A stretch of DNA of 13,285 bases, taken from IMG/VR virus record IMGVR_UViG_2609459822_000007; one strand, written 5' to 3'. Numbering within the stretch: position 1 is the stretch's first letter; every line of letters begins with the position of its first letter. Of this stretch, positions 9,001-12,000 are shown piece by piece. Made by a program: the position numbers. This DNA comes from a virus (lineage: Duplodnaviria; Heunggongvirae; Uroviricota; Caudoviricetes).

Positions 9001-12000
9001 TTTCGCCATTTTTGAACCTGTCATATTGCCCCCAGCATGGTGGTGACCATCGCCATCAATGGACCAGCCAGATCCGGGTCCACTCGAAACATCGACACAA
9101 TGCCTTCACTCATCTCCTTCAGTTTCTGGTGGCGTGGTGCGTTGAGAATGACCGCCTGCTTTGCCTCACTGAGTTCCTTTTCCATTTCAGCCAGCCGAGC
9201 CATGAAGCTATCCTGCTCAACCAGGTGGCCGCGATATTCCAGCGGTAGTACCGCCAGAATTGCCGGGGTCAGTTCACGCACGTTATTTCGGTATTTTTCA
9301 GAATCGAATTTGTTATCGAGGAAGCGGAACAGCTTCTGGCGTGCACGACTGACATCATCAGGAAAATCGATGGTGCCGCCGCCCTGTGCTCGATACTCAT
9401 TCACAATGAGTGCGGCAACTACATCCTGATTATCTTCAGCAGACCAAGCGCGGACGGCATCACGGATTTTTTCGTGGCCTGGCACCTGTTTTGTTTGAGA
9501 ACGATTTATCACCGCAGTCGGGCTAAATCCGCTAGTCTGTTGGTATGTAAGTGGTTGCATAATTGACTCCTTTAGTTTGAATTGACTGTTAAGTTGATTG
9601 CTTATTGTTAAAGAGCGTGAAATGGAAATTTAAGCTGCGTTCTTTTCGGTGTGTGGAAACAACTTCGGAAGATCCGGGCGAATCTGGTATGCCTTCACTA
9701 CTCCACCAGTAGCCGTAACAATGCTGCCGACATGTTCAGGGGATACCTTTGCTTTGTTGTGAAGCCACTTATAGACGGCCTGCTGTGAAACTTCGCAAGC
9801 AGCGCCCAGTTTCTTTTGTGAACCAACGATATTGATCGCTGTTTTGATAGCTGGGTTCATAACAACCTCCGTGGTTAATTTGAATCAAGATTAAAACCAT
9901 GGTTGTTTTTAGTCAACAACCATTTTCGTTTGATGGAATAAAACCTTGGTTGTACATTTGGACTATGAAAACAACACTCTCAGAAAGACTTAAAGAAGCC
10001 AGATTAGCGCGAGGCCTTACACAAAAGGCGCTTGGGGATTTGGTCGGGGTTAGCCAAGCTGCTATTCAGAAAATCGAAACAGGGAAAGCTAATCAAACAA
10101 CTAAAATCGTGGAGATCGCGAACGCTTTGGGTGTGCGCGCAGAATGGTTATCTTCTGGCGTTGGAAATATGTCAGACAGTACAGTGCAACCAATACAATC
10201 AACTGTCAGCCATTCCAAATACTTCAAGATTGACGTTCTTGATATAGAAGTCAGTGCTGGGCCGGGAGTCATCAACCGTGAGTTTGTAGAAGTTCTACGC
10301 TCGGTTGAGTACTCGTTTGACGATGCTCGTCATATGTTCGATGGTAGGAAGGCGGAAAATATCCGCATCATTAACGTGCGTGGTGACAGCATGTCAGGAA
10401 CGATCGAACCAGGTGATCTGCTGTTCGTTGATATCACAGTTAAATCTTTCGACGGTGATGGTATCTATGCGTTTCTGTACGACGACACAGCCCATGTAAA
10501 GCGCCTGCAAATGATGAAGGATAAGCTGCTGGTCATCTCTGATAACAAAAGCTACTCACCGTGGGACCCGATCGAGAAAGACGAGATGAACCGGGTGTTC
10601 ATCTTCGGTAAGGTTATTGGGAGCATGCCGCAGACATATAGAAAGCATGGGTAGTACCAATTAAAAATTATCAACTGGGCATTGTGCTCATTCAGTAAAG
10701 AACTAATTCCTATCTTTGCTCTAGGTAGTAATATTAAGCCACCGCAATAATATCTTTACCTAACGGCGTAAGAATCCCGGTCACCGTGCCGGGTTTTCTT
10801 TTGCCCTCCCCTCATCACACACACCGTTAAAAAAACCACCATAACCTCGCTTCAGTTATCGCTATGCGATTCAAGTCACAAAATAAATCCATCCTAAATA
10901 CAACCAGTTATATCTAAAACAACCAATAAAACAACTTTTGTTGTTGACGGTAAAACAACTATAGTTTTAAATAAGTTCATCGCAACAACACAACGATACG
11001 GCAACCACCTGATTCACCGTTGCGATGACCGCTTAGATCCGCAGTTTGAATTTCAGCAGGCTTCGGGGAGTGCGAGGGGTGAAACGGACGCGTGAACGTC
11101 GGTGTGACCAGCTGAAATCAACTCAACATTTCATACCTTAGTCGCTTCAACGAGGCGACTTAGTTATGACAACCGGCGGCCATCCACCGCCTGAATACGC
11201 GCAGAAGTCTCTATATGTTCAGCAGCCCAGCTTACGGGCAGGAGTTTTTATGGTTCATCAACATTACGGAACGCAGACCGTTAATCGAGGTGCGGTCATG
11301 CCAGGAATGCTGGTCAAACACAAAGATGGTACCTGGACTGCATCAGCTAATTTACGCGGACGGCTTTATCTGCATCGCGGCATCGAGCGCACTTATACCC
11401 GTGATTTGCTCGTGGAAGTTTTTCTCGACGGACGCGGTAACGGCCTGAATCGCTAATCCCCTTTCCTGTTTTCCTAATCAGCCTGGCATTTCGCGGGCGA
11501 TATTTTCACAGCCATTTTCAGGAGTTCAGCCATGAACGCTTATTACATTCAGGATCGTCTTGAGGCTCAGAGCTGGGCGCGTCACTACCAGCAGATCGCC
11601 CGTGAAGAGAAAGAGGCAGAACTGGCAGACGACATGGAAAAAGGCCTGCCCCAGCACCTGTTTGAATCGCTATGCATCGATCATTTGCAACGCCACGGGG
11701 CCAGCAAAAAAGCCATTACCCGTGCGTTTGATGACGATGTTGGGTTTCAGGAGCGCATGGCAGAACACATCCGGTACATGGTTGAAACCATTGCTCACCA
11801 CCAGGTTGATATTGATTCAGAGGTATAAAACGGATGAGTACAGCACTCGCAACGCTGGCAGGGAAGCTGGCTGAACGTGTCGGCATGGATTCTGTCGACC
11901 CACAGGAACTGATCACCACTCTTCGCCAGACGGCATTTAAAGGTGATGCCAGCGATGCGCAGTTCATCGCATTGCTGATCGTCGCCAACCAGTACGGCCT

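What the first reader, a model, noticed from the sequence alone, without database searches (positions are those of the whole stretch)
9561..9629. rrn-type boxA after cro, plus direct repeats at the cII-like start
The minus strand reads CGCTCTTTAACAA 13 nt after the cro stop, matching the boxA consensus at the nutR position, but I find no convincing boxB hairpin and no N gene in the window. That suggests Nus-factor-dependent but N-independent processive antitermination, or a nut site for an N encoded elsewhere. The same interval has two AATTGACT direct repeats 19 bp apart (9561-9568 and 9580-9587) on the plus strand, next to a -35-like TTGACT. That geometry would fit an activator-dependent PRE-type promoter reading toward cI, with the 186-type CII-like protein binding the repeats.
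Basis: partly seen in the sequence, partly recalled or inferred. Interest (0 to 1): 0.5.

Follow-up and report, generated by a model that had tools for sequence, protein, structure and literature searches.

The report
Orphan nutR boxA in N-less prophage
The boxA after cro is real and comes from a lambda-type nut site, but this common E. coli prophage has lost the boxB hairpin and the N gene. It is therefore most likely a leftover that may still bind host Nus factors, and the nearby AATTGACT repeats are probably not a regulator binding site.

Summary
Both observations are in the sequence. CGCTCTTTAACAA lies on the minus strand at 9605-9617, starting 13 nt after the cro stop. AATTGACT occurs at 9561-9568 and 9580-9587.

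The boxA is homologous to nutR. Of 22 cro-family loci sampled from other genera and phages, 8 have boxA at the same position. In all 8 a hairpin follows it, and 5 of the 8 have a detectable N gene in the DNA fetched.

This lineage has no boxB, no nutL, no N and no HK022-type put RNA, even in a complete phage genome. Phages with the same ydaT-O-P operon but another immunity region lack boxA entirely and are viable. So boxA is an orphan that travels with cro. N-independent, Nus-dependent protection from Rho is possible but not essential and is untested.

The "cII-like" protein belongs to the YdaT family, not the 186 CII family. Its published operator is the inverted repeat TTGATT-N6-AATCAA. That motif is perfect at 2954-2971 and near-perfect at the pR start (9871-9888), but not at the repeats. 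The repeats are statistically unremarkable (P about 0.05) and overlap the ydaT ribosome-binding site.

The parts
9605..9617 (-). Orphan boxA, CGCTCTTTAACAA, on the pR transcript. It starts 13 nt after the cro stop and ends 45 nt before the ydaT ATG.
   Evidence: Matches GYTCTTTAANA. The same element at the same position is followed by a boxB-like hairpin in 8 relatives.
9630..9860 (-). cro, a YdaS/P22_Cro-type HTH protein of 76 aa.
   Evidence: Pfam PF15943 at 4e-17 and PF14549; phrog_35.
9021..9560 (-). CII analogue of the YdaT family, 179 aa. Its recognition-helix region SRARQKLFRFLD aligns with ARNTQKIFRWLD of CP-933P YdaT.
   Evidence: PF06254 at 8e-30; phrog_163; alignment to PDB 8bt1 and 3c4r; unrelated to 186 CII.
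9567..9572 (-). Shine-Dalgarno AAGGAG of ydaT. The ydaT-proximal AATTGACT copy is the end of this SD plus the 6-nt spacer to the ATG.
   Evidence: Read from the sequence.
9561..9568 (+). AATTGACT, copy 1.
   Evidence: Changed to AATTGATT in L016 and carries a 1-nt deletion in L058 and L072.
9580..9587 (+). AATTGACT, copy 2. Its TTGACT is the -35 of the best weak plus-strand promoter candidate (TTGACT, 15-nt spacer, TATTGT at 9603-9608; 9 of 12).
   Evidence: The candidate is not reported by the standard promoter scan, which allows spacers of 16-18 nt.
9594..9611 (+). Best local match to the YdaT box, TTGATTGCTTATTGTTAA. It has 3 mismatches, all in the right half, and overlaps the boxA complement.
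   Evidence: Twenty such matches occur in the window against 12 expected, so this is not significant.
9871..9888 (+). YdaT-box-like sequence GTGGTTAATTTGAATCAA (2 mismatches) at the inferred pR start and cro 5' UTR. This is the more likely YdaT site within the immunity region.
   Evidence: The equivalent position in D2 has 2 mismatches and in PhiR68_2 1 mismatch. Rac YdaT footprints -60 to +40 around the ydaS start.
9965..10654 (+). cI-type repressor (HTH_3 plus Peptidase_S24).
10975..11165 (+). pL leader up to kil. It contains no boxA or nutL, no N gene and no put-like RNA.
   Evidence: The leader is shared with heteroimmune N-less phages.
2954..2971 (.). Perfect published YdaT operator, TTGATT-N6-AATCAA. 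It forms the -35 of a TTGATT-17-CATAAT promoter that reads toward ninB, rusA and Q.
   Evidence: The half-sites are invariant and there are five different spacers among seven phages.

Best explanation
The 13-mer is a genuine nutR-type boxA that is inherited as part of the cI-cro immunity module. Its ancestors were N-dependent lambdoid phages with the layout cro - boxA - boxB - cII, plus nutL and N to the left of cI.

In this E. coli lineage, mosaic recombination joined that module to two other modules. On the right it joins a ydaT-O-P replication module, with the joint exactly at the ydaT start codon (9560/9561). On the left it joins an N-less pL-leader-kil module, with the joint near 10980. 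The boxB hairpin, nutL and N are gone, and boxA survives because it lies only 12 nt beyond the cro stop.

Inferred, not shown: because boxA matches the high-affinity rrn-type consensus, it probably still loads NusB-S10 onto pR transcripts. Any consequence is accessory rather than required. Two outcomes have precedent: rrn/CRISPR-like protection from Rho, or suhB-like damping of ydaT translation.

The AATTGACT repeats are a chance duplication, and one copy is simply the ydaT ribosome-binding-site spacer. The CII analogue is a YdaT-family protein. Its canonical inverted-repeat operator occurs elsewhere: near-perfect at the pR start and perfect upstream of ninB.
For: Homology to nutR:
- boxA lies 7-24 nt after the cro stop in 5 of 11 genus-level cro orthologues and in phages PA28, SH2026Stx1 and PSTCR7lys. 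A hairpin follows it in every case.
- Three of these loci also carry a nutL with a related or lambda-like hairpin.
- N ORFs are confirmed by Pfam PF25694 and by a local HMM in L010, L012, L013, L015, PA28 and SH2026Stx1.

Orphan status:
- No hairpin.
- No second boxA.
- No N in the window or in the complete PhiR47_2 genome, where the best hit has E = 9.3.
- No put element. A put HMM recovers putL and putR in 4 control phages and finds nothing here. Rfam also finds nothing.

Module linkage and dispensability:
- Eleven phages match window 9000-9561 at 94-97% identity and then diverge exactly at the ydaT ATG.
- D2 and PhiR68_2 have a 30-nt cro-ydaT gap with no boxA, followed by the same O, P, ren, SMR and ybcK genes.

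Potential residual activity:
- boxA matches GYTCTTTAANA.
- NusB:NusE binds rrn BoxA about tenfold tighter than lambda BoxA.
- Stand-alone BoxA elements function at suhB and at CRISPR leaders.

Repeats.

YdaT operator.
Against: - Nothing here measures function. The junction is nearly clonal: it occurs in 1524 of 5426 complete E. coli genomes, mostly at 99% identity or more. Conservation therefore cannot separate selection from recent spread.
- This lineage has no other recognisable early antitermination device, which leaves room for boxA to matter more than a relic would.
- The 44 nt between boxA and ydaT resemble nothing in the nut sites of relatives, so how boxB was lost (deletion or replacement) is unresolved.
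- TTGACT is a 5-of-6 match to the YdaT half-site. Five half-site-like hexamers, all in one orientation, lie in 9561-9629, against about 1.2 expected. Weak YdaT binding there is not excluded.
Confidence: 0.6

Rival explanations
1. Functional, N-independent antiterminator. The stand-alone boxA recruits NusB/S10, NusA, NusG and SuhB to RNA polymerase leaving cro, as in rrn operons and Salmonella CRISPR leaders. This makes the pR transcript resistant to Rho across the poorly translated gaps on the way to Q.
For: - Perfect match to the functional consensus, and rrn-type BoxA has high affinity for NusB:NusE.
- BoxA-only antitermination has precedent.
- The lineage has neither N nor put.
- The pR operon has long gaps between ORFs (6354-6607, 4363-4826 and 2790-3003). 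No strong intrinsic terminator is predicted before the one downstream of Q at 804..781, so Rho would be the relevant obstacle.
Against: - Sister phages with the same right operon have no boxA and are viable.
- The long pL operon has no boxA.
- Among the 22 cro-family loci sampled, an orphan boxA was seen only in this lineage.
- An internal promoter at 2971..2943 could feed the nin-Q region independently.
- ydaT starts 45 nt downstream with a strong SD, so translation coupling already protects this stretch.
Confidence: 0.27
2. suhB-like negative element. Nus-factor loading at boxA, 30 nt upstream of the ydaT SD, lowers ydaT translation and so permits Rho termination. This would set the level of the CII analogue and bias the lysis-lysogeny decision.
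For: - At suhB, BoxA represses translation even when moved up to 100 nt from the SD. Lambda nutL represses N translation in a similar way.
- boxA here lies within about 50 nt of the ydaT start.
- The boxA core GCUCUUU is complementary to the ydaT SD region AAAGGAGU.
Against: - The predicted pairing is weak (-3.3 to -3.6 kcal/mol, z -1.0).
- The same ydaT is expressed without any boxA in D2-type phages.
- There is no direct evidence.
Confidence: 0.1
3. The two AATTGACT repeats are binding sites for the CII-like activator, which flank or overlap a -35 and switch on a plus-strand promoter that starts near 9615 and reads through cro (antisense) into cI.
For: - YdaT proteins do activate a repressor-directed promoter from sites at the ydaS/ydaT junction in CP-933P and Rac.
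- TTGACT is a 5-of-6 match to the YdaT half-site, and half-site-like hexamers are enriched here.
- A weak promoter candidate exists: TTGACT, 15-nt spacer, TATTGT, which keeps the -11 A and -7 T.
Against: - The known operator is an inverted repeat with a 6-nt spacer, not direct repeats 19 bp apart.
- The repeat is at chance level.
- Variants change it.
- It travels with cro, not with ydaT. The heteroimmune partners of the same YdaT share no 12-mer with this region.
- Better box matches lie at 9871-9888 and 2954-2971.
- The protein is not of the 186 CII type.
Confidence: 0.12

Closest known systems
Lambda-type nutR site (boxA + boxB, read by N with NusA/B/E/G), as in lambda, P22, 21, 933W/PA28
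   Same: Same boxA sequence class. Same position a few nt after the cro stop, on the pR transcript. Carried by a homologous cro gene (PA28 Cro is 67% identical).
   Different: No boxB hairpin, no N gene and no nutL partner. It therefore cannot work as an N-utilisation site.
Stand-alone BoxA sites bound by the Nus factor complex (rrn leaders, suhB 5' UTR, Salmonella CRISPR leaders)
   Same: A boxA that matches GYTCTTTAANA and has no phage protein partner. Like suhB, it lies shortly upstream of a start codon.
   Different: It sits in a translated phage operon between two genes. It is descended from a nut site. No GU-rich boxC is visible downstream. Nus factor binding and any effect on Rho are untested.
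HK022-type put RNA antitermination (HK022, HK639, phiEt88, APC_JM3.2, UPF_BP1)
   Same: These are also N-less lambdoids or lambdoids with a reduced N system. Some carry a cro of the same family, and putR occupies the same cro-cII gap.
   Different: No put-like sequence or two-hairpin structure occurs anywhere in the window or in PhiR47_2.
YdaS/YdaT (Cro/CII analogue) switches of Rac and CP-933P
   Same: Same two protein families in the same order. A similar recognition helix. The same operator motif TTGATT-N6-AATCAA is present in the window.
   Different: This YdaT is 179 aa with a longer N-terminus. There is no good box at the ydaS/ydaT junction. The perfect box lies 6.6 kb downstream, on a promoter upstream of ninB.

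Membership tests
Lambda-type nut site | boxA matching CGCTCTT(T)A on the early transcript just downstream of cro | tested here: met
   Exact CGCTCTTTAACAA at 9617..9605 (minus strand), with 12 nt between it and the cro stop.
Lambda-type nut site | boxB stem-loop a few nt downstream of boxA | tested here: not met
   No hairpin. All nine nut sites of relatives fold into one.
Lambda-type nut site | Cognate N protein with an arginine-rich motif encoded downstream of pL | tested here: not met
   The N-family HMM finds nothing in the window or in the complete PhiR47_2 genome, yet it finds N in relatives, including one left out of training. No N is annotated. A 31-codon Arg-rich ORF in the pL leader is only a lead.
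Lambda-type nut site | Partner nutL on the pL transcript | tested here: not met
   No boxA within 3 mismatches in 10655-11166.
Stand-alone Nus-factor BoxA (rrn / suhB / CRISPR type) | Sequence GYTCTTTAANA on the RNA strand | tested here: met
   GCTCTTTAACA at 9616..9606.
Stand-alone Nus-factor BoxA (rrn / suhB / CRISPR type) | NusB/NusE/SuhB recruitment, and a boxA-dependent change in Rho termination or translation | not testable with these tools
   Needs ChIP, reporter fusions and nus or rho mutants.
Stand-alone Nus-factor BoxA (rrn / suhB / CRISPR type) | Conservation of the boxA independent of a nut context | tested here: inconclusive
   The lineage is nearly clonal. One boxA variant and four variant types elsewhere in the 69-nt gap were seen among 80 contigs. 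An orphan boxA was seen in no other sampled lineage.
HK022-type put | A roughly 70-nt two-hairpin RNA downstream of pL and pR, with sequence similarity between the copies | tested here: not met
   The put HMM finds nothing in the window, PhiR47_2, D2 or IdasGreatGrand but recovers the control phages. No element is shared between the pL leader and the pR operon. The gap is unstructured.
Lambda CII / PRE | TTGC-N6-TTGC flanking a -35 at the start of cII | tested here: not met
   No match within 1 mismatch near 9400-9700.
186 CII (Phage_CP76) / pE | Activator protein of family PF06892 | tested here: not met
   The window protein is PF06254 only. 186 CII is PF06892. BLASTP between them gives E = 1.3.
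YdaT operator | Inverted repeat TTGATT-N6-AATCAA at the candidate site 9561-9629 | tested here: not met
   The best match, at 9594-9611, has 3 of 12 mismatches, which is chance level. The motif is perfect at 2954-2971 and has 2 mismatches at 9871-9888.
YdaT family protein | YdaT_toxin domain with the conserved recognition-helix Arg | tested here: met
   PF06254 at 103.5 bits. The alignment to 8bt1 and 3c4r includes QKLFRF against QKIFRW.

The most novel reading that the evidence does not exclude
A very common E. coli lambdoid lineage has neither N nor put RNA. Its cro-boxA-ydaT junction is present in 1524 of 5426 complete genomes. It may use a lone rrn-type boxA, salvaged from a former nutR, to load the host NusB/E-NusA-NusG-SuhB complex onto pR transcripts and gain N-independent resistance to Rho. 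That would be a phage counterpart of rrn and CRISPR-leader antitermination.
Probability: 0.25. Interest if true: 0.6.

Novelty: new member of a known kind. Interest (0 to 1): 0.3.

Why it matters
The finding shows how a nut site decays when immunity modules are shuffled into N-less phages. It also identifies a natural, viable, heteroimmune pair for a clean test: window-type phages such as PhiR47_2 carry boxA, while D2/4A7-type phages carry the same right operon without it. That pair could show whether a lone boxA does anything in a translated phage operon.

The work also corrects the identity of the "cII-like" gene to the YdaT family. It relocates the likely YdaT targets to the pR start and to a conserved promoter upstream of ninB-Q, which bears on how these prophages choose between lysis and lysogeny.

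Tried and rejected
- Rfam at a permissive threshold found nothing relevant.
- HK022/HK639 put. A profile built from four put sequences recovers putL and putR in controls but finds nothing in this lineage. No element is shared between the pL leader and the pR operon.
- N elsewhere. A simple Arg-rich N-terminus screen was too noisy to use. It was replaced by an N-family HMM.
- A boxB upstream of boxA, in the rrn order, was not found.
- No lambda-type TTGC-N6-TTGC is present.
- Homology to 186 CII was rejected.
- A search for a motif shared between the two immunity regions that pair with the same YdaT found only homologous cro coding sequence.
- The population-variation test for selection on boxA had too few variants among 80 IMG/VR contigs to say anything.
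- The viral-contig scan with Cro returned only loci with 100% identical Cro, so it added no diversity.
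Full report
**Layout**

The window is the early region of a lambdoid E. coli prophage.
- cI (HTH_3 plus Peptidase_S24) lies at 9965-10654 on the plus strand.
- Read on the minus strand, the next genes are:
  - cro, of the YdaS/P22_Cro type, at 9860..9630;
  - a 179-aa YdaT-family protein at 9560..9021;
  - replication genes O and P;
  - a ren-like ORF, named from the annotation of related phages;
  - an SMR transporter;
  - a YbcK-like serine recombinase.
- The cro-ydaT junction, window 9540-9900, is present in 1524 of 5426 complete E. 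coli genomes, mostly at 99% identity or more.
- The surrounding region, window 9000-10000, is present at 96-98% identity in five isolated phages, including PhiR47_2 and IdasGreatGrand.

**Checking the observation**

The minus strand of 9605-9617 reads CGCTCTTTAACAA. It is the only exact copy in the window, and 12 nt separate it from the cro stop. Its core equals the experimentally derived consensus GYTCTTTAANA (PMC5725501). AATTGACT occurs at 9561-9568 and 9580-9587 and nowhere else in the window.

The cro-ydaT gap has no hairpin:
- The RNA from 9650 to 9540 folds at -5.6 kcal/mol with z +0.58.
- The 57 nt starting at boxA fold at only -3.6 kcal/mol.
- The 3' end of cro upstream of boxA is also unstructured.

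**What the boxA is**

I collected cro homologues from 11 other genera and from annotated phages. After the cro stop they fall into three classes.

1. boxA followed by a hairpin, that is a nutR, in a gap of about 100-150 nt:
   - L009 Erwinia, L010 Xenorhabdus, L012 Buttiauxella, L013 Photorhabdus and L015 Arsenophonus;
   - phages PA28, SH2026Stx1 and PSTCR7lys.
2. An HK022-type putR: UPF_BP1, phiEt88 and APC_JM3.2.
3. A short gap of about 20-40 nt with neither element: L005-L008, L011, L014, HK639, two Klebsiella phages, and the D2 and PhiR68_2 phages.

In class 1 I also found other parts of the system.
- nutL sites lie on the other side of cI in L010, L013 and L015. L013 nutL has the same hairpin as its nutR. 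The L010 nutL stem differs from its nutR stem by a compensatory change. L015 nutL has a lambda-like boxB.
- N ORFs were detected in L010, L012, L013, L015, PA28 and SH2026Stx1. Three of them match Pfam PF25694: L012 and L015 above the curated cut-off and L013 just below it. A local N-family HMM detects them.
- No N was detected in the fetched DNA of L009 or PSTCR7lys.

So the window's boxA is homologous, by position and by carrier gene, to the boxA of nutR. The extended "rrn-like" form is normal for these N-dependent sites and is not a sign of N-independence.

**What is missing**

The window has no second boxA within 3 mismatches that could serve as nutL. No ORF between cI and kil is large enough to be N.

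The N-family HMM finds nothing in the six-frame translation of the window or of the complete 47-kb PhiR47_2 genome; the best hit has E = 9.3. The same HMM detects an N in L010 that was not used to build it. The annotations of PhiR47_2 and IdasGreatGrand list Q but no N.

A put profile recovers putL and putR in four control phages but finds nothing in the window, PhiR47_2, D2 or IdasGreatGrand. Rfam adds nothing.

This lineage therefore carries no recognised early antitermination system except this lone boxA.

**Module structure and dispensability**

Eleven phages match window 9000-9561 at 94-97% identity and then diverge exactly at the ydaT start codon. In D2 and PhiR68_2 the same ydaT-O-P-ren-SMR-ybcK operon follows a different cro, across a 30-nt gap that has no boxA.

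On the left, homology between heteroimmune phages resumes near 10980, at about the pL start, and continues through a shared leader and kil.

The boxA and the 44 nt after it therefore belong to the immunity module, not to the genes they precede. The same right operon runs without any boxA in viable phages.

Among the 22 cro-family loci sampled, an orphan boxA occurs only in this lineage. Eighty IMG/VR contigs that encode an identical Cro gave too few variants to test selection. One variant lies in boxA (CGCTCTTTGACAA), and four variant types lie elsewhere in the gap.

**Most likely mechanism**

Shown: this is a nutR-derived boxA without its partners, transcribed with cro and ydaT. No terminator-like site lies between them on the minus strand.

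Inferred: it should still bind NusB-S10, for three reasons.
- It is a perfect consensus site.
- NusB:NusE binds rrn-type BoxA about tenfold tighter than lambda BoxA, at about 8 nM against 80-90 nM (PMC2800207).
- Stand-alone BoxA elements act without N, blocking Rho at Salmonella CRISPR leaders (PMC7665894) and promoting translational repression and Rho termination at suhB, even from up to 100 nt upstream of the SD (PMC5725501).

Either outcome is conceivable here. The only strong intrinsic terminator predicted on the minus strand lies downstream of Q, at 804..781. Rho would therefore be the relevant obstacle between pR and Q.

Against an important role:
- The sister phages lack boxA.
- The pL operon has no boxA.
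- ydaT has a strong SD (AAGGAG, 6 nt from the ATG) only 30 nt downstream of boxA.

My estimates are: leftover with at most an accessory effect, about 0.6; real N-independent antitermination, about 0.25-0.3; suhB-like damping of ydaT, about 0.1.

**The repeats and the "CII-like" protein**

The protein is YdaT family (PF06254 and phrog_163). It is unrelated to 186 CII, which is PF06892; BLASTP between them gives E = 1.3.

YdaT proteins are established CII analogues. CP-933P YdaT binds TTGATT-N6-AATCAA near the end of ydaS and activates PRE933P (PMC9986795, PMC8630535). Rac YdaT binds ATGATT-N6-AATCAA over its own start codon and activates a reverse promoter inside ydaS. It also footprints the ydaS promoter and start region (PMC11879457). 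The two proteins cross-react despite being about 30% identical. The window protein has a similar recognition-helix region (QKLFRF against QKIFRW).

- They are direct repeats, 19 bp apart.
- The best local box, at 9594-9611, has 3 of 12 mismatches, which is chance level.
- An 8-mer direct repeat within 40 nt occurs 22 times in the window, and in about 5% of shuffles of this segment.
- The ydaT-proximal copy is the tail of the SD plus the spacer to the ATG.
- Variants change it: AGTCAATT becomes AATCAATT in L016, and L058 and L072 carry a 1-nt deletion.
- No 12-mer with 1 mismatch or fewer is shared with the D2-type immunity region that serves the same YdaT, apart from homologous cro coding sequence.

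In favour of some YdaT contact: TTGACT is a 5-of-6 match to the half-site, and five half-site-like hexamers lie in one orientation in 9561-9629, against about 1.2 expected. A weak plus-strand promoter candidate also exists (TTGACT at 9582, 15-nt spacer, TATTGT at 9603).

**Better YdaT targets**

The window contains one perfect box, TTGATTTCCCAAAATCAA, at 2954-2971. The complete PhiR47_2 genome likewise has exactly one box with 1 mismatch or fewer, at the equivalent place.

In seven phages (the window, phage 82, HK639, D2, PhiR47_2, PhiR5_1 and IdasGreatGrand) both half-sites are invariant, while five different spacers occur. The sequence upstream of the box is unrelated between the spacer types. 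The box supplies the -35 of a TTGATT-17-CATAAT promoter that reads toward ninB, rusA and Q. That promoter was annotated as putative in the phage 82 record X92588.

A second, weaker site lies at the inferred pR start: 9871-9888 in the window with 2 mismatches, and the equivalent position in D2 (2 mismatches) and PhiR68_2 (1 mismatch). This matches the Rac footprint over the ydaS promoter.

**Verdict**

The boxA is a real nut-derived element, but it is an orphan in an N-less and put-less phage, and it is not required by the operon it precedes. The repeat-based PRE idea and the 186-type assignment are not supported. Interest is modest. The most interesting reading that remains open is a lone-boxA, N-independent anti-Rho device, and the natural boxA+ and boxA- phage pair makes it directly testable.

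Noticed in passing
window 2911-2983: A perfect published YdaT operator, TTGATT-N6-AATCAA, lies at 2954-2971. It forms the -35 of a minus-strand promoter (TTGATT-17-CATAAT, 2971..2943) that reads toward ninB, rusA and Q, and of a divergent plus-strand candidate (2954-2983). The hairpin GTCACCGGAG..CTCCGGTGAC follows at 2939..2911. The half-sites are invariant with five different spacers in seven phages, and a mosaic joint lies at 2972. This suggests that the CII analogue directly controls a nin/Q-proximal promoter, a role resembling lambda paQ.
   Followed up: partly
window 9871-9888; L002 3808-3825; L004 3808-3825: YdaT-box-like sequences (1-2 mismatches) sit at the pR start or cro start codon in two different immunity types that share the same YdaT. 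This parallels the Rac YdaT footprint over the ydaS promoter and suggests that YdaT represses pR.
   Followed up: partly
window 11048-11143 (+): A 31-codon ORF with a TTG start lies in the pL leader, where N would sit. It encodes ..GVKRTRERRCDQLKS.., which resembles the lambda N arginine-rich motif RRRERRAEKQ (recalled from memory). It ends at a TAG in the window but is in frame with kil in PhiR47_2, where the annotated Kil is 128 aa. It could be an N remnant, a leader peptide or chance. The N-family HMM does not detect it.
   Followed up: partly
window 9560/9561, about 10980 and 2972: Mosaic joints between phage modules fall exactly at functional boundaries: the ydaT start codon, about the pL transcription start, and the edge of the YdaT box.
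   Followed up: partly
window 9567-9616 (-): The boxA core GCUCUUU is complementary to the ydaT Shine-Dalgarno region AAAGGAGU (7 pairs, 2 of them G-U). The predicted pairing is weak (about -3.5 kcal/mol, z -1.0).
   Followed up: partly
window 8444-8540: A cluster of direct repeats of 10-11 nt (TTTACCTGATT, TTGTCTTTTGT, TTCAGGTAAA) lies inside the O gene. These look like ori iterons, as in lambda.
   Followed up: no
window 774-817 (-): A strong intrinsic terminator, AGCCAGCC..GGCTGGTTTTTTTT, lies at 804..781, about 100 nt downstream of the ORF at 1295..903, which I take to be quuD-like Q from gene order. It is probably the Q-controlled tR'. The weak Rfam hit to a betaproteobacterial toxic sRNA (E = 0.023) is probably just this hairpin.
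   Followed up: no
L104 775-1005, L111 1236-1379, L112 1752-1853: Phages that carry HK022-type putL and putR (UPF_BP1, phiEt88, APC_JM3.2) also give N-family HMM hits to the left of cI (E = 5e-10 to 2e-3). These are possible N remnants, or N and put coexisting.
   Followed up: no
L015 3235 and 4839 (+), 1876 and 3851 (-): The Arsenophonus locus has two near-identical copies of nutR, two boxA sites on the opposite strand, and a second N-like ORF (3364-3777). This points to a duplicated or nested immunity region.
   Followed up: no
window 4827-6994: The early right operon carries cargo genes like those of DLP12: an EmrE-like SMR efflux gene (6608-6994) and a 508-aa serine recombinase (YbcK-like, 4827-6353).
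   Followed up: no
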